Source: Pseudomonadota bacterium (GTDB lineage: Bacteria; Pseudomonadota; Gammaproteobacteria; Burkholderiales; Burkholderiaceae_C). From it: 64,000 nucleotides of DNA. This document shows, one piece after another, positions 37,681 to 42,956 of the stretch. The position numbers and the translations under genes were made by a program. The stretch spans positions 15,596 to 79,595 of the forward strand of contig JBEEJT010000218.1 in the NCBI GenBank assembly GCA_041169085.1. Reading direction: 5' to 3'. The notes under the pieces were generated by a model, which was not told the origin of the DNA, searched no databases, and saw only the letters and a program-made list of their open reading frames with translations. Every line of letters starts with the position of its first letter. Position 1 is the first letter of the stretch.

Positions 37681-39486
37681 TCAGGGATAGAAGATGTCGG
37701 CGGTGTAGCCCGCCGGTTGCAGCTTGGCGATTTTGAGGCGCCACTGCAAGGTGGTGCTGCGCTGGGCCGGGGCGGCTTCAGGCAGTGGCAGGCCGGGGCC
37801 TGCTTGGGGTTCAGCGCCGTCTTGCCAGGTGGCGTCTTGCGGCTTGAACACGTTGCGGATGATGACGGCACCGCTGAGGTCGGTGAGCGACAGGTCGATG
37901 TGGGGCCACGCCAGCCCGATGGGGGCCTTGTTTTGCAAGACCACCGTGAGGCGGTAGACGTCGGGGCCTTCGGACGTGGCGCGCACGAAACTCAGGCTGT
38001 CGACCTGCAGGTCTTCGATGCGCAGCGGCGGCTGGATGGTGCAGCCAACCAGACGGCACCATTGCGCCAGTTGGGGGCGCAGCGGCGGGTGGTGTGCCGC
38101 GATCAGGTCGCGGAACTGGTGAGTCATCTGCGCACCCAGCAAAGCGAGCAGCATCACGGCCAGCAGCCCCAACGCGGCGCGCATGGCCGGGTGGCGCCAG
38201 CGGGCTTGAGCCTGGGCTTGTTGCACGAAGCCTGGGGTCGCTTCAGCCGCGGGGGCGGCCTTGCGGCGCAGCGCGCTGCCTTTGGCCGGCGGCTCAGCTG
38301 CAGGCTCGGCGGCAGGTGGCTCCGCGGCGGGGGCCTCTGGCGTGGCCTGGAGGTGGGCGGCGTCTTCTTCGAAGCGAGAGGGGATGGTGGACGGCTCGTC
38401 TTCCGTGGCTTCGGGCGTGCCCGGGGCGGGCTCGGCCAGCACGGTGATCGCGGGGGCGGCGGCCGGGGCTGGCGCGGCAGAGAGGTCCTCTTCGGCGTCC
38501 AGCAGCCAGTCGTCGGGCACTTCCGCGTCGGCGAAATCGGGGGAGTCGGTCGGGCGGCGGGCGGCGGCCGGCCGGTCGCGCCGGGTGGAAGGCAGCAGGT
38601 AGCGGGAGTCCAGCGCGTCTGATTCTTCGGTGCTGGGCACCAGGTCGTAGCGGCTGGGGCTGGACCAGTCGTCGCCGCCGCTGTCAGGCGGGGGCGCGCT
38701 GTCTGAAACGGTGAGGCCCGCGAGCTGGAAGTCGCCAGCAGGGCCTGCGGCGGCCGGTGCGGCCCGGTGGTCGGGTTCGGGCGCAGGCTGAGGCGAGCGG
38801 GCTTCGGCCGGGTCCGAGCCCATGGGCGACAGGCGCAGCGACAGCGGTGCGCTCATGCCTTCGAGCTCAGGGGGCGCCGAGGGGTCGGTGAGGTCGGCCG
38901 TCTGTCGGGGGATGAGGTCGACGGCGGTGTCGAGTTCGATGTCGTCGAGGCCCGGCGTGCGTGGCGCGGCATCGGCTGGCGCCGGTGGGTCGGCGGGGTC
39001 GGCGGGGTCGGCGGGGTCGGCGGGGTCGGCGGGCGCCTCGGGCACCACGGTGTCGAGGTCGAAGTCGGTGGTGGCGGGCACGGGGGCCAGCCAGGATCGG
39101 GTCTGCGCAGGGGCGGGTTGGGGCCCGATGCGCGGCCCCGCGGGGGCGGCGGCGACCGGCTCAGGCGGTGCGGTGTCGTCGAGTTCGCTTTGCGGCAAGG
39201 TGGCCGGCCACTCCGAGGGGGGCTGGCTGGGCGGGTTGTCGCGCTCGTCGGCGTCGGCCGTGGTGACCTCGTCGGCAGGTTGCGGCTGGGCAACGGCCTG
39301 GCTCTGTTCGGGTGCGGGGGCCTGGCGCGGTGGCGGCGGCTCCCTGTCGAGGTCAAACAGGGTGGGCAGGGCGTGGAAAACCTCGTTGCAACGGCCACAG
39401 CGCACCCAGCCCTCGGAGACCTTCAATTGGTCTTCGACGACCTTGAAGATCGTGCCGCAATGGGTGCAACGGGTGGCCAGGCTCAT
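37681..39486 (-). CDS. Zinc-ribbon (MJ0042-type) + DUF3426 membrane protein
   Basis: TRCTHCGTIFKVVEDQLKVSEGWVRCGRCNEVF, long acidic Pro/Ala linker, TM helix, C-terminal LQNKA..WPHIDLSLTD...YTADIFYP. Confidence 0.85.
   Translation of the reverse strand: MSLATRCTHCGTIFKVVEDQLKVSEGWVRCGRCNEVFHALPTLFDLDREPPPPRQAPAPEQSQAVAQPQPADEVTTADADERDNPPSQPPSEWPATLPQSELDDTAPPEPVAAAPAGPRIGPQPAPAQTRSWLAPVPATTDFDLDTVVPEAPADPADPADPADPADPPAPADAAPRTPGLDDIELDTAVDLIPRQTADLTDPSAPPELEGMSAPLSLRLSPMGSDPAEARSPQPAPEPDHRAAPAAAGPAGDFQLAGLTVSDSAPPPDSGGDDWSSPSRYDLVPSTEESDALDSRYLLPSTRRDRPAAARRPTDSPDFADAEVPDDWLLDAEEDLSAAPAPAAAPAITVLAEPAPGTPEATEDEPSTIPSRFEEDAAHLQATPEAPAAEPPAAEPAAEPPAKGSALRRKAAPAAEATPGFVQQAQAQARWRHPAMRAALGLLAVMLLALLGAQMTHQFRDLIAAHHPPLRPQLAQWCRLVGCTIQPPLRIEDLQVDSLSFVRATSEGPDVYRLTVVLQNKAPIGLAWPHIDLSLTDLSGAVIIRNVFKPQDATWQDGAEPQAGPGLPLPEAAPAQRSTTLQWRLKIAKLQPAGYTADIFYP
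38987..39031. repeat. 9-bp tandem repeat (GGGTCGGCG)x5 encoding Pro-Ala-Asp repeats
   Basis: Five perfect copies counted directly. Confidence 0.9.
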
Positions 39487-39616
39487 GAGGCCCGTTTATG
39501 CCATTGATCGGGGCCTTTTTCCGTCCCGCCACCGGATTTGCGGTGGCAGGGACGTTGGCCGGGTGCAACTGGCGCCAACACGGCTGTGCAAGCGCCTGAT
39601 GCGCGTCAAGCGTCGG

Positions 39617-40501
39617 TCAGAAGCTGCCCTTGCTGCCGAAGTTCGACAAGTCGGTGCCCTGGGCACGGAAGAAGGTGCCGTAGCGTTCGTCTTCGTCAAC
39701 GAAGCGCTTGGCCCAGGCCAGGGCGTATTTGGCCACGTGGGCTTGCGAGCTGGCGCTGGCGGTCGTCCACAGCGACAGGTGGTTGAAGCCGGCCAGTTCG
39801 ACCCACACGGCGGGCGTGCTGCCGTCCAGGGCCTGGAAGAAGGGCTTGGACCAGCTGCTGGCCAGGCCATCGTTCTGGGCGGTGAGCACCAGCGTGGGGG
39901 TCTTGGTGGTGGTGGCCAGGCTCTTGTAGCTGGTGCCGGGCTCGCCCGCCATCAGGCCCACGAGCGCCTTGAGTTCGGGGTGGGTGGCGGCGGCGTAGAA
40001 GGTGCCGGCGCCGCCAGCCGAGTGGCCCATGAAGGCCACGCGGGTCTCGTCGACCTGGCCAGCCCAGGCCACGGCCTGCACCTTGTTCTGGGCCTTCATG
40101 GCGTCCATCACGGCCACCAGTTGCGTGGCCCGGGCCTTGGGCATGTCCAGCAGCGATTTGGTTTGCACCACGGCCACCACAAAGCCATGCGAGGCGATGC
40201 GCTCGGCGATGCCGGCATACAGGCCGGCCGAGCTCACGAAGCCCGGGCACAGCACCACCAGGCCAAAGGTGCCCTGGCTGCGGTCGGTGGGGTGGTAAAC
40301 GGTGGTGCCATTGCCGTAAGCCGACGCGTTGACCAGCGTGGCCTTGGCGGTGGCGAACGGGCCGGCGGCCTCGATGCTGGCCACGGTGGGGGCCGGGCCT
40401 TTGGCGTAGCCGGCGGCGAAGGCCGACGACATGGCGGCGGCGCCGAGGGTGAGGCCGGCGATCAGGCGGCGGACGGAAGTGGAGGGGGAAGCGGTGCGCA
40501 T
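39617..40501 (-). CDS. Secreted PETase/cutinase-like alpha/beta hydrolase (294 aa)
   Basis: GGAG RBS; signal peptide; YAKGPAPTVASIEAAGPF, TVYHPT, CPGF, RIASHGFVV, MGHSAGG, QNDGLA, GFNH, WAKRFVDEDERYGTF; triad S161/D211/H241. Confidence 0.85.
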   Translation of the reverse strand: MRTASPSTSVRRLIAGLTLGAAAMSSAFAAGYAKGPAPTVASIEAAGPFATAKATLVNASAYGNGTTVYHPTDRSQGTFGLVVLCPGFVSSAGLYAGIAERIASHGFVVAVVQTKSLLDMPKARATQLVAVMDAMKAQNKVQAVAWAGQVDETRVAFMGHSAGGAGTFYAAATHPELKALVGLMAGEPGTSYKSLATTTKTPTLVLTAQNDGLASSWSKPFFQALDGSTPAVWVELAGFNHLSLWTTASASSQAHVAKYALAWAKRFVDEDERYGTFFRAQGTDLSNFGSKGSF

Positions 40502-40514
40502 GGGGGCTCCTGGC

Positions 40515-40539
40515 GAATTGTTCTGAACATGAACAATTC
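40515..40539. promoter_or_regulatory. Perfect inverted repeat 14-38 bp upstream of the hydrolase start (candidate operator)
   Basis: GAATTGTTC-tgaacat-GAACAATTC. Confidence 0.6.
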
Positions 40540-40568
40540 TTCCGACGCGCGGCGCCCGCAACCACGGG

Positions 40569-40599
40569 AAAAGCCCGGGGCGGTTTCCCGACCCGGGCT
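40569..40599 (-). terminator. Intrinsic terminator after prmA
   Basis: AGCCCGGG...CCCGGGCT stem followed on the minus strand by TTT. Confidence 0.6.
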
Positions 40600-40644
40600 G
40601 GCGTTCGCTTCGAAGCGTGTGCGCCTCAGGCGAGGCGGGATGCA

Positions 40645-41583
40645 TCAAACCGGCTTGCGCGCGGTCATCAGGATCCAACCGTCTTCCGAGTTGCTGACCT
40701 GCAGTTGCAGGCCCACTTCGGCGTAGGCGTCTTTGAGCTCTTGTTCCTGGCGGGCCAGGATGCCGGCCAGCACCAGGTGGCCACCGGGGGCCACGTGGCC
40801 GGCCAGCAGCGGCGCCAGCATCTTCAGCGGCGTGGCCAGGATGTTGGCCAGCACCAGCGGGTAGGCGCCTTGGGCTTCGCCCACCAAGTCGGGCAGGCCG
40901 GCCCGAATGGGCAATTTGCCGTCGGGGTCCTTCAGGTGGGCCAGGTTGGCTTCGGCGTTGGCGTTGGTGGCATCCACCGCGGCCGGGTCGATGTCGACCG
41001 CGTCGATCAGGCCCGAACCAAACAACGCGGCCCCGATGGCCAGGATGCCGGAGCCGCAACCGTAATCCAGCACGGGTTGGCCCTGGAAGGCTTCAGGGTG
41101 TTGGGCCGTCCACTTCAGGCACATGCGGGTGGTGGGGTGGGTGCCCGTTCCAAAGGCCAGGCCCGGGTCCAGGCGCATCACGGTCTGGGCTGCCGCCGGC
41201 ACCTCGTGCCACGTGGGCACGATGAAGAAGGTGTCGGTGATGGGCACAGGCTTGAACTGCGACTGCGTCAGGCGCACCCAATCTTGTTCGTCCACGGGCT
41301 GGATGCCCTGAACGTGGACGTCTGCGGCCCAGTCCTGGGCCAACAAGAGCGTGGCCGCTTCCAGCGCTTCCGCTTCGGTCGGGAACAAGCTCTTGATGGT
41401 GGAGCGCTGCCAGGCTTCGCGCGCCACCGGCATGCCCGGTTCGCCCCACAGGGCTTCTTCGTGTTCCGTGTCGGCATCGGCGTCTTCGACGGACACGGAC
41501 AAGGCGTCGACCTCCATGAGCGCGTCGCTCAAGGTTTCGACTTCGGCCTCTTTGGCCAGCAGGGTGAGTTCAAACAGGGGCAT
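40645..41583 (-). CDS. prmA: Ribosomal protein L11 methyltransferase
   Basis: DWVRLTQSQFKP, LDPGLAFGTGTHPTT, LDYGCGSGILAI, ANILA. Confidence 0.95.
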   Translation of the reverse strand: MPLFELTLLAKEAEVETLSDALMEVDALSVSVEDADADTEHEEALWGEPGMPVAREAWQRSTIKSLFPTEAEALEAATLLLAQDWAADVHVQGIQPVDEQDWVRLTQSQFKPVPITDTFFIVPTWHEVPAAAQTVMRLDPGLAFGTGTHPTTRMCLKWTAQHPEAFQGQPVLDYGCGSGILAIGAALFGSGLIDAVDIDPAAVDATNANAEANLAHLKDPDGKLPIRAGLPDLVGEAQGAYPLVLANILATPLKMLAPLLAGHVAPGGHLVLAGILARQEQELKDAYAEVGLQLQVSNSEDGWILMTARKPV

Positions 41584-41606
41584 GTCGGTGGGGCTTGGGG
41601 CCAGGT

Positions 41607-42956
41607 TCAACGCTTGCGCGCGGCCATCCAGCCTTCGAGGTAATGGATGTCGGTGCCGCCTTCAACGAACTTGGCGTCGACCATCAGCTCGCGGTGCAGC
41701 GGGATGTTGGTCTGGATGCCTTCGACCACGGTTTCCGACAGGGCGGTGCGCATGCGGGCCAGGGCCTGCTCGCGGGTGTCGCCGTGCACGATGATCTTGC
41801 CGATCATGGAGTCGTAGTTGGGGGGCACGAAGTAGTTCGTGTAGACGTGGGAATCCACGCGCACGCCAGGGCCGCCCGGCGCGTGCCAAGTGGTGATGCG
41901 GCCGGGCGACGGGATGAACTTCACCGGGTCTTCGGCGTTGATGCGCACCTCGATGGCGTGGCCGCGCAGTTCCACCTGACGTTGCGTGAAGGGCAGCTTT
42001 TCGCCTGCGGCCACACGGATCTGCATCTGCACGATGTCGATGCCGCTCGTCATCTCGGTGACGGGGTGCTCCACCTGCACGCGGGTGTTCATCTCGATGA
42101 AGTAGAACTCGCCGTTTTCATAGAGGAACTCGAAGGTGCCGGCGCCTCGGTAGCCGATCTTCTTGCAGGCGGCAGCGCAGCGGTCGCCCACCTTTTCGAT
42201 GATGCGACGGGGGATGCCAGGCGCCGGTGCCTCTTCGATGATCTTTTGGTGGCGGCGCTGCATGGAGCAGTCGCGCTCACCCAGCCAGACCGCGTTCTTG
42301 TGCTGGTCGGCCATGACCTGGATTTCGACGTGGCGCGGGTGCTGGAGGAACTTCTCCATGTACACCTCGGGGTTGCCGAACGCGGCGCCCGCTTCCGCCT
42401 TGGTGGTCTGCACGGCGTGGATCAGCGCGGCTTCGGTGTGCACCACACGCATGCCCCGGCCACCGCCACCGCCTGCGGCCTTGATGATGACGGGGTAGCC
42501 CACCTGGCGGGCGATCTTGATGATTTCCTTCGGGTCTTCCGGCAGGGCGCCGTCCGAGCCCGGCACGCAAGGCACGCCCGACTTGATCATGGCCTGCTTG
42601 GCCGAGACCTTGTCGCCCATCAGGCGGATGGACTCCGGTGTGGGGCCGATGAAGGTGAAGCCCGATTGCTCGACGCGCTCGGCGAAGTCGGCGTTCTCAG
42701 ACAGGAAGCCATAGCCGGGGTGGATGGCCTCGGCGTCGGTCACTTCGGCGGCCGAGATGATGGCCGGCATGTGCAGGTAGCTCTGGGCAGACGGGGCCGG
42801 GCCAATGCACACGGCCTCGTCGGCCAGCTTCACGTACTTGGCTTCGCGGTCGGCTTCGGAATACACCACCACCGACTGGATGCCCATTTCGCGGCACGCC
42901 CGCTGGATGCGCAGGGCGATCTCGCCACGGTTGGCGATCAGGATCTTCTTGAACAT
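41607..42956 (-). CDS. accC: Acetyl-CoA carboxylase biotin carboxylase subunit
   Basis: [51 protein letters not shown]. Confidence 0.97.

What the first reader, a model, noticed from the sequence alone, without database searches (positions are those of the whole stretch)
39617..40501. Divergent PETase/cutinase-like secreted hydrolase with a remodelled substrate cleft, inserted between prmA and DUF3426
The 294-aa protein aligns by eye along its whole length with Ideonella sakaiensis PETase as I recall it (YAKGPAPT/YARGPNPT, RIASHGFVV/RLASHGFVV, WAKRFVDEDERY/WMKRFMDNDTRY), and the triad is intact (S161, D211, H241). Key PET-binding positions differ: F88 for Y87, H160 for W159, A162 for M161 (GHSAGG), and Gly at the wobbling W185 position (LMAGEP versus QAPWDS). 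It has only one Cys, so no PETase disulfides. This predicts a polyester or lipid hydrolase of different specificity, possibly a new subfamily. It interrupts the usual prmA-DUF3426 adjacency and has its own control signals.
Basis: partly seen in the sequence, partly recalled or inferred. Interest (0 to 1): 0.8.

Follow-up and report, generated by a model that had tools for sequence, protein, structure and literature searches.

The report
Rewired PETase-like esterase in a lipase slot
This is an intact, exported serine esterase from the well-known PETase/cutinase family, but from a small uncharacterised Aquabacterium subfamily whose substrate pocket is rebuilt and whose upstream DNA motif is shared with true lipase genes. 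It therefore looks like a lipid or aliphatic-ester hydrolase rather than a plastic-degrading enzyme.

Summary
Window 39617-40501 (-) encodes a 294-aa exported alpha/beta hydrolase of Pfam PF12740 (194 bits). It is 35% identical to IsPETase, with the triad S161/D211/H241 intact and no disulfides.

F88 and H160 are ordinary for the family. The real signatures, invariant in about 46 relatives, are A162, G186, W217 at the IsPETase S214 position, and a longer post-His loop with W245. Across the family, a small residue at 185 goes with an aromatic at 214, which suggests the pocket's aromatic wall was relocated rather than lost. I could not check this in 3D.

The gene sits between prmA and DUF3426 in every orthologous locus with context. 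Most genomes of the same genus have that slot empty, one holds a decayed remnant, and two hold an unrelated LipA-type lipase.

A palindrome, ATTGTT-N9-AACAAT, lies just upstream of this gene. It also precedes 12 LipA-type lipase genes across the genus and, with one mismatch, a LipA-type lipase in this genome.

Best reading: a secreted lipolytic esterase co-regulated with lipases, and a poor PET hydrolase. It is a new variant of a known kind, of moderate interest. No member has been assayed.

The parts
39617..40501 (-). ORF of the PETase-like hydrolase (P0001, 294 aa plus stop)
   Evidence: PF12740 at 194 bits; AF2 model with pLDDT 89; Foldseek TM 0.86-0.90 to PET hydrolases and the 1JFR lipase
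40415..40501 (-). Probable Sec signal peptide, residues 1-29 (n-region with R11 R12, hydrophobic LIAGLTLGAAAM, c-region SAFA|AG)
   Evidence: Read from the sequence. pLDDT is below 60 over residues 1-31. Alignments to mature solved enzymes start at residues 28-32. The RR pair is not conserved in orthologues, so Tat export is unlikely. Inferred; no signal-peptide predictor was available.
40010..40027 (-). Nucleophile elbow G159-H-S161-A162-G-G164 (GHSAGG), with Ser161 at 40019-40021 and Ala162 replacing the family's Met
   Evidence: invariant in alignment A1
39944..39946 (-). Gly186 at the position of the conserved subsite-I Trp (IsPETase W185)
   Evidence: invariant in A1
39869..39871 (-). Catalytic Asp211
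39851..39853 (-). Trp217 at the IsPETase S214 position (His in most homologues); proposed relocated aromatic wall of subsite I
   Evidence: invariant in A1. Its placement in 3D was not checked.
39779..39781 (-). Catalytic His241
39752..39778 (-). Extended loop after His (L242-A250, with near-invariant W245); 5 residues longer than in actinobacterial enzymes and 2 longer than in IsPETase
40515..40539 (-). Palindrome GAATTGTTC-N7-GAACAATTC (core ATTGTT-N9-AACAAT), ending 13 nt before the start codon by window coordinates; probable operator shared with lipase genes
40507..40511 (-). Shine-Dalgarno sequence AGGAG, 5 nt before the ATG
40569..40598 (-). Terminator-like hairpin after prmA (GCCCGGGTCGG-GAAA-CCGCCCCGGGC followed by TTTT)
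   Evidence: -23.3 kcal/mol, z -3.0. The consensus scan did not call it; the tail has only four T (read).
40645..41610 (-). Upstream flank: prmA
   Evidence: PF06325, 260 bits
37681..39486 (-). Downstream flank: Zn-ribbon/DUF3426 protein

Best explanation
The gene encodes an exported carboxylesterase/lipase of the PETase/cutinase-like fold.

Catalysis: it uses the classical Ser161-Asp211-His241 triad, with the oxyanion hole formed by the backbone NH of Phe88 and Ala162.

Pocket: it belongs to a small orthologous subfamily whose acyl/aromatic subsite I is rebuilt. The family's Met161 and Trp185 are replaced by Ala and Gly. The residue that normally packs against Trp185 (position 214) has become Trp217. 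The loop after the catalytic His is lengthened and carries Trp245. Both stabilising disulfides are absent.

Genomic setting: in a subclade of Aquabacterium the gene sits in a variable slot between prmA and DUF3426, as its own transcription unit. It is preceded by a palindrome (ATTGTT-N9-AACAAT) that elsewhere in the genus, and in this genome, precedes family I.1 LipA-type lipase genes. In two species one of those lipases occupies this same slot.

Conclusion: it most likely works as one of the cell's secreted lipolytic enzymes, under the same regulator as the true lipases. Its likely substrates are lipids or aliphatic (poly)esters. It is not expected to be an efficient PET hydrolase.

Shown: family and fold, intact triad, subfamily signatures, synteny, slot variability, and the motif's association with lipase genes.
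Inferred: export, the 3D role of W217, the regulatory nature of the palindrome, and substrate class.
For: Family and fold:
- PF12740 at 194 bits against a cut-off of 28.
- AF2 pLDDT 89.2, pTM 0.86.
- Foldseek top hits are PET hydrolases and the S. exfoliatus lipase 1JFR, TM 0.86-0.90.

Constraint:
- 46 sequences, mean column identity 69%.
- G159-H-S-A-G-G164, D211, H241, G186 and W217 are invariant; W245 is conserved at 90% or more.

Subfamily:
- Identities of 54-82%, then a drop to 47% and 42%.
- One clade with 100% support and a stem of 1.07 substitutions per site, inside an Aquabacterium radiation.
- Only 2 full-length representatives at 50% identity among 1.84 billion proteins.

Pocket rewiring:
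- Family-wide residue triples at positions 161/185/214: MWH 141, AGW 47, AAY 4, AAF 4, AGY 1, MGF 1, MAY 1, MAA 1.
- Aromatic 214 accompanies W185 in only 5 sequences.
- 7 phylogenetically independent contrasts, about 5.4 in the same direction and 0.4 opposite.

Literature:
- In IsPETase, W185A keeps 5% and M161A 52% of PET activity (PMC8669999).
- Positions 214 and 218 control the W185 side chain (PMC10080609).

Slot:
- Orthologues lie in prmA-[gene]-DUF3426 in L009, L010, L027, L089, L090 and L091.
- In 22 of the 30 prmA loci fetched from the genus, DUF3426 starts 18-114 bp after prmA.
- G026 and G031 carry a LipA-type lipase there; it matches 1EX9 at E 6e-69.

Motif:
- Conserved upstream of all the orthologues examined.
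- 22 exact sites in 19 of 76 genus genomes, against 2 for the reversed control.
- Of these sites, 12 precede LipA-type lipases, 1 precedes this gene and 2 precede other alpha/beta hydrolases.
- A one-mismatch copy precedes the best LipA-type lipase of the window's own genome.
Against: - No member of the subfamily has been assayed, so the substrate class is inferred from regulation and context only.
- The covariation rests on few independent events (sign test median p about 0.06).
- The scan found no sigma-70 promoter, and the factor that binds the palindrome is unknown.
- 7 of the 22 exact palindrome sites precede non-hydrolase genes.
- A canonical Aquabacterium paralogue (Dh5) does degrade PCL and PET powder (PMC10547765), so polyester activity in the wider gene family of this genus is real. 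Activity on aliphatic polyesters here is quite possible.
Confidence: 0.6

Rival explanations
1. It is a genuine aromatic-polyester (PET/PBAT-type) hydrolase whose altered cleft still binds terephthalate units. W217 and W245 would supply the aromatic clamp, giving a new type of PETase.
For: All nearest solved relatives are PET hydrolases. F88 keeps the aromatic residue at position 87, and an aromatic residue is retained next to the pocket. An Aquabacterium paralogue degrades PET powder.
Against: - It lacks M161 and W185; the W185A mutant of IsPETase keeps 5% activity.
- NCBIfam's BHET-hydrolase equivalog scores 204 bits against a cut-off of 520.
- It has no disulfides.
- The same genome already holds four canonical M/W paralogues.
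- Its upstream motif and its slot are shared with true lipases.
Confidence: 0.12
2. It is a cutinase/suberinase or aliphatic-polyester (PCL, PBS, PHA-like) depolymerase that acts on natural polymeric esters in freshwater biofilms. The shared palindrome would reflect general carbon-source control, not a lipid-specific role.
For: PF12740 members include cutinases and PBS(A) depolymerases (PDB names). Aquabacterium Dh5 clears PCL. The palindrome also precedes non-lipase alpha/beta hydrolases and other genes.
Against: 12 of the 22 exact motif sites precede LipA-type true lipases, and the slot itself alternates with such a lipase. No PHA-depolymerase signal was found beyond 26 bits. This rival overlaps with the best explanation, since aliphatic esters are common to both.
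Confidence: 0.2
3. The palindrome is not an operator. It is a structural or recombination element, or an RNA hairpin, that travels with mobile lipase-type cassettes, so the association says nothing about function or regulation.
For: The motif is absent from empty slots and arrives with whichever gene occupies the slot. It can fold as an RNA hairpin (-13.7 kcal/mol in the window). The slot shows gain, loss and replacement.
Against: - The arms ATTGTT/AACAAT are conserved in sequence across non-homologous genes at different loci.
- Where the inner bases differ between sites, they often still extend the dyad.
- The site always lies just 5' of the Shine-Dalgarno sequence on the coding strand.
- No mobile-element genes are present in the slot.
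- The hairpin z-scores are weak or inconsistent.
Confidence: 0.1
4. The protein is a decaying or catalytically irrelevant paralogue (a pseudoenzyme).
For: One species keeps only a deleted remnant in the slot. The subfamily has lost the disulfides and two pocket residues.
Against: The frame is open. The triad and 59 columns are invariant over 46 sequences that share as little as 44-58% identity. The AF2 model is confident.
Confidence: 0.03

Closest known systems
Type I/II bacterial PET hydrolases and cutinase-like polyesterases (IsPETase, LCC, TfCut2, PHL7; Pfam PF12740)
   Same: Same fold (TM 0.86-0.90), the same Ser-Asp-His triad in a G-x-S-x-G elbow, the same size and an N-terminal export signal; 35-40% identity. 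F at position 87 and H at 159, as in most type I enzymes.
   Different: Ala for Met161, Gly for Trp185 and Trp for His/Ser214. A post-His loop 5 residues longer than in type I and 2 longer than in IsPETase, with a conserved Trp. No C-terminal disulfide and no IsPETase-type second disulfide.
Streptomyces exfoliatus lipase (PDB 1JFR), the lipase member of the same family
   Same: Same family and fold (E 1e-47; Foldseek rank 3, TM 0.86). It shows that PF12740 proteins can be lipases.
   Different: Actinobacterial. I did not inspect 1JFR's pocket residues or Cys pattern; the actinobacterial homologues that I did tabulate carry Met161, Trp185 and the C-terminal Cys pair.
Aquabacterium PETase-like paralogues (for example Dh5, MBI3384080.1, which degrades PCL and PET powder; PMC10547765)
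   Same: Same genus-level radiation, secreted, Leu at position 238 and an extended loop.
   Different: The canonical paralogues examined keep Met161/Trp185/His214 and sit at other loci. The slot subfamily is separated from them by a long stem.
Family I.1 true lipases (P. aeruginosa LipA, PDB 1EX9) of the same genus
   Same: Same upstream palindrome at the same position relative to the start codon. In G026 and G031 the lipase occupies the same chromosomal slot. Both are secreted.
   Different: The two are not detectably alike in sequence: each slot gene was picked out by its own query only. The elbow differs too (GHSQGG). In G008 the gene downstream of the lipase has no Pfam hit, and I only guess it is a foldase.

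Membership tests
Pfam PF12740 (PETase / polyesterase-lipase-cutinase family) | Scores above the family's gathering threshold | tested here: met
   194.4 bits against a cut-off of 28, covering profile positions 5-244 of 263
Pfam PF12740 (PETase / polyesterase-lipase-cutinase family) | Alpha/beta-hydrolase fold superposable on solved members | tested here: met
   AF2 pLDDT 89.2; Foldseek E 1e-28, TM 0.86-0.90 to 7NEI, 1JFR, 6EQD and others
Pfam PF12740 (PETase / polyesterase-lipase-cutinase family) | Ser-Asp-His triad with Ser in G-x-S-x-G | tested here: met
   S161 in GHSAGG, D211 and H241 align to S160/D206/H237 and are invariant in 46 sequences
Pfam PF12740 (PETase / polyesterase-lipase-cutinase family) | Conserved C-terminal disulfide (IsPETase C273-C289) | tested here: not met
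   Only one Cys (C85). Positions 273 and 289 are R/Q/S/K and S/D/E across the subfamily. Several other Aquabacterium paralogues also lack it, so this is a frequent rather than strictly defining feature.
PET hydrolase (functional class; types I, IIa, IIb) | Conserved subsite I: Y/F87, M161, W185, I/V208 | tested here: not met
   F88 and L213 are compatible, but A162 and G186 replace Met and Trp
PET hydrolase (functional class; types I, IIa, IIb) | NCBIfam equivalog NF051441 (BHET hydrolase) above its cut-off | tested here: not met
   203.7 bits against a cut-off of 520
PET hydrolase (functional class; types I, IIa, IIb) | Releases TPA, MHET or BHET from PET | not testable with these tools
   Needs an enzyme assay
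Family I.1 bacterial true lipases (LipA type) | Sequence homology to LipA (1EX9) | tested here: not met
   At tblastn E <= 1e-8 the window's slot locus matched the PETase-like query only, and the LipA-type slot loci matched the LipA query only. This is functional and regulatory analogy, not family membership.

The most novel reading that the evidence does not exclude
The Ala161/Gly185/Trp214 arrangement would be a distinct, recurrently evolved active-site architecture of the PETase fold, in which the aromatic wall is supplied from the helix after the catalytic Asp. It would confer a new specificity class, such as true lipase-like or bulky aliphatic-ester activity. In addition, the ATTGTT-N9-AACAAT palindrome would define a previously undescribed lipase regulon in Sphaerotilaceae, with non-homologous lipolytic genes exchanged as operator-bearing cassettes in the prmA/DUF3426 slot.
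Probability: 0.3. Interest if true: 0.6.

Novelty: new variant of a known kind. Interest (0 to 1): 0.45.

Why it matters
PETase-family enzymes are engineered intensively, and Trp185 with its neighbours 214 and 218 is treated as a fixed design element. A natural, conserved lineage that deletes Trp185 and Met161 and places a Trp at position 214 is a ready-made test of how that pocket can be rebuilt and what specificity results.

It is also a caution for plastic-degradation surveys. A strong 'PETase' Pfam hit in a freshwater genome can be a lipase-regulon enzyme.

The shared palindrome gives a testable handle on lipase regulation in Aquabacterium. The slot shows non-homologous lipolytic genes replacing each other at one chromosomal site.

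Tried and rejected
- Literature search for 'GHSAGG': 0 papers. I found no characterised member of the subfamily.
- Sigma-70 promoter and intrinsic terminator scan of 39300-40800: nothing.
- Rfam at E <= 1: only a sub-threshold chance hit, P15 at 18.9 bits against 70.
- Tat export: considered because of R11 R12, rejected because the RR pair is not conserved in orthologues.
- A sigma-54 promoter or an LTTR-type site as explanations of the palindrome, judged by eye: spacing and position are inconsistent between loci, so neither was adopted.
- AF2 coordinates are not exposed to the Python box, so I could not measure W217 or W245 distances to Ser161.
- The search of earlier findings returned nothing by place or by sequence.
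- The idea that GHSAGG is unique to this subfamily was rejected: two other Aquabacterium clades have it, with Ala at 185 and Tyr or Phe at 214.
- dN/dS was not attempted. Synonymous sites are probably saturated at 59-82% protein identity.

Full report
**1. Observation**

The minus-strand ORF at 39617-40501 is real: ATG at 40501, TGA at 39617-39619, 294 aa. It is preceded by AGGAG 5 nt upstream.

It scores 194 bits on Pfam PF12740 'PETase' against a cut-off of 28. It matches more than 180 PDB chains, the best at E 3e-52 (ancestral PETases, PHL7, the 1JFR lipase).

The protein has one Cys (C85). All four PETase disulfide positions are non-Cys. The flanks are prmA and a Zn-ribbon/DUF3426 protein.

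**2. Fold**

An AlphaFold2 model built on 46 subfamily sequences has mean pLDDT 89.2 and pTM 0.86. Only residues 1-31 are of low confidence. Foldseek places the model with PET hydrolases, cutinases and the S. exfoliatus lipase at TM 0.86-0.90 normalised to the target.

The N-terminus reads as a Sec signal peptide: R11 R12, then LIAGLTLGAAAM, then SAFA|AG. The RR pair is not conserved in orthologues, so I do not favour Tat export. This is inference; no signal-peptide predictor was available.

**3. A defined subfamily**

The 5.8-billion-protein search returns 45 clusters at 54-82% identity. After those comes one outlier at 47%, then canonical family members at 42% or less.

- In the alignment (A1), G159-H-S-A-G-G164, G186, D211, W217 and H241-L242 are invariant. 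C85 and W245 are conserved at 90% or more. Mean column identity is 69%.
- In a tree the group is one clade (SH-aLRT 100) on a stem of 1.07 substitutions per site. It lies in an unresolved trichotomy with two clades of Aquabacterium/Sphaerotilaceae paralogues, apart from the actinobacterial enzymes and IsPETase.
- In the 50%-identity library of 1.84 billion representatives it collapses to two full-length representatives.
- The window's own genome has four further PF12740 genes that score higher (227-281 bits) and keep the canonical pocket.

**4. What is really unusual in the pocket**

F at position 87 and H at 159 are the majority residues among homologues, so they are not remodelling. Four things are specific to the subfamily:

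- Ala for Met161.
- Gly for Trp185.
- A two-residue deletion after the catalytic Asp that brings an invariant Trp (W217) to the position of IsPETase S214.
- A loop after the catalytic His that is 5 residues longer than in actinobacterial enzymes and 2 longer than in IsPETase, with W245.

Position 214 (with 218) is the residue that controls the Trp185 side chain. It is a 'strictly conserved' His in other PET hydrolases (PMC10080609).

I tabulated positions 161/185/214 across 293 family sequences aligned to one HMM; 269 had a complete triad:

| 161/185/214 | Sequences |
|---|---|
| M/W/H | 141 |
| A/G/W | 47 |
| A/A/Y | 4 |
| A/A/F | 4 |
| A/G/Y | 1 |
| M/G/F | 1 |
| M/A/Y | 1 |
| M/A/A | 1 |

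An aromatic residue at 214 accompanies Trp185 in only 5 sequences. So a small residue at 185 goes with an aromatic at 214 in six of seven residue classes, including two further Aquabacterium clades.

On a tree built without these columns there are 7 independent contrasts. About 5.4 go the same way and 0.4 the opposite way, with a sign test median p of about 0.06. That is suggestive, not significant.

My reading is that the aromatic wall of subsite I is relocated from the beta7-alpha5 loop to the start of the following helix, and Met161->Ala makes room for it. I could not verify this in 3D, because model coordinates are not exposed.

In IsPETase, W185A keeps 5% and M161A 52% of PET activity (PMC8669999). 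An efficient PETase is therefore not expected here. NCBIfam's BHET-hydrolase equivalog is far below its cut-off (204 against 520 bits).

**5. The slot**

Every orthologue with readable context lies in aroQ-accB-accC-prmA-[gene]-DUF3426-pfkB:

- L009, an Aquabacterium MAG, 59% identity.
- L010, 70%.
- L027, 75%.
- L089 and L090, 74%.
- L091, 63%.

Record titles name the genus Aquabacterium. In the 30 prmA loci fetched from 41 genomes of that genus:

- In 22, DUF3426 starts 18-114 bp after prmA.
- Three carry the gene: the window's genome, G008 and G004.
- One, G026, has a 1183-bp gap.

That gap, and the same site in G031, holds a 318-aa secreted family I.1 lipase with a GHSQGG elbow. It matches P. 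aeruginosa LipA (1EX9) at E 6e-69.

G027 keeps only an in-frame remnant. Residues about 86-101 are fused to about 201-294, so the remnant lacks:

- a start codon;
- the signal peptide;
- the Ser nucleophile.

G029 and G009 have an empty slot.

The gene is therefore not a private insertion. The slot is variable and is occupied by alternative, non-homologous secreted lipolytic genes.

**6. A shared upstream motif**

The upstream region contains, in order:

- A strong hairpin followed by TTTT after prmA, at 40598-40569 (-23.3 kcal/mol, z -3.0).
- An AT-rich perfect palindrome, GAATTGTTC-N7-GAACAATTC, at 40539-40515.
- The Shine-Dalgarno sequence and the ATG.

The core ATTGTT-N(8-9)-(G)AACA(A)T is conserved before all the orthologues examined. 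The same core, ATTGTT-N9-AACAAT, precedes the LipA-type lipase in the slot of G026 and G031. It also precedes a LipA-type lipase elsewhere in G008.

Across 76 genus genomes there are 22 exact sites in 19 genomes, against 2 for the reversed control. I inspected all 22:

| Gene downstream of the site | Sites |
|---|---|
| LipA-type lipase (one, in G006, followed 177 nt later by a canonical PETase-like paralogue) | 12 |
| The window's gene | 1 |
| Other alpha/beta hydrolases | 2 |
| AraC-family regulator gene | 2 |
| Unrelated genes | 5 |

In the window's own genome the only exact copy is at this gene. A one-mismatch copy precedes the best of its four LipA-type lipases, on contig C363.

The site usually ends roughly 10-60 nt before the start codon, on the coding strand. 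The arms are conserved in sequence across non-homologous genes, which points to a protein-binding operator rather than a mere RNA hairpin. The binder is unknown. No sigma-70 promoter, terminator or Rfam family was called in the region.

**7. Interpretation**

The best-supported reading is an exported, catalytically competent esterase/lipase that belongs to the same regulon as the true lipases. It probably acts on lipids or aliphatic esters and polyesters, with a rebuilt subsite I.

- Rivals are a novel aromatic-polyester hydrolase, a cutinase or aliphatic-polyester depolymerase without a lipid link, a non-regulatory palindrome, and a pseudoenzyme. They are weighed in their own sections.
- A canonical Aquabacterium paralogue (Dh5) degrades PCL and PET powder (PMC10547765). 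Some polyester activity, especially on aliphatic polyesters, is therefore plausible.
- No characterised member of this subfamily was found.

**8. Verdict**

This is a new variant of a known kind.

Interest is moderate. The family is very well known and nothing has been assayed. But three things are new, coherent and directly testable: the conserved W185G/M161A/S214W rewiring, its recurrence in the family, and the lipase-type regulation and cassette exchange in the slot.

Limits:
- Earlier-findings look-ups were empty.

Noticed in passing
L121:2532-3488 (G026) and L123 (G031), between prmA and DUF3426: A family I.1 LipA-type secreted lipase (318 aa, GHSQGG elbow, 1EX9 homologue) occupies the same slot that holds the PETase-like gene in the window. 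It is preceded by the same palindrome.
   Followed up: yes
L122:2810-3150 (G027), minus strand: Decayed remnant of the subfamily gene in the slot. Residues about 86-101 are fused in frame to about 201-294, with no start codon, no signal peptide and no catalytic Ser.
   Followed up: yes
L161 (G006:C20:493500-497000): One palindrome is followed by a LipA-type lipase and, 177 nt downstream on the same strand, by a canonical PETase-like paralogue. This looks like a lipase plus PETase-like tandem behind one motif.
   Followed up: partly
L142 (G068) and L148 (G035): An exact palindrome (ATTGTTCAGTTGGACAACAAT) lies 34-46 nt upstream of an AraC-family regulator gene (PF12625 plus HTH_18). It may be the regulator of the motif, or just another target; this was not tested.
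   Followed up: partly
G000 contig C8:50061-51776 (L001/L003): The window's genome carries a tandem pair of PETase-like genes with a GWSMGG elbow (Trp at position 159, as in IsPETase). They group with IsPETase in the tree, though on long branches. Two more canonical paralogues lie on C284 and C92.
   Followed up: partly
L013, L014, L018 (second gene of a tandem pair); L020, L021, L057: Two further Aquabacterium clades have GHSAGG with Ala at position 185 and Tyr or Phe at position 214. These look like independent versions of the same pocket rewiring.
   Followed up: partly
window 38250-39250 (inside the DUF3426 gene, 37681-39486, minus strand): The middle of the DUF3426 protein is a long Pro/Ala/Asp-rich low-complexity linker that includes a PADPADPADPADP repeat. 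Local GC reaches 73-77%, against about 65-70% around it.
   Followed up: no
L130:1-528 (G008), minus strand, downstream of the LipA-type lipase: An ORF with an N-terminal membrane anchor and no Pfam hit follows the lipase. It could be a lipase-specific foldase, but this is not established.
   Followed up: partly
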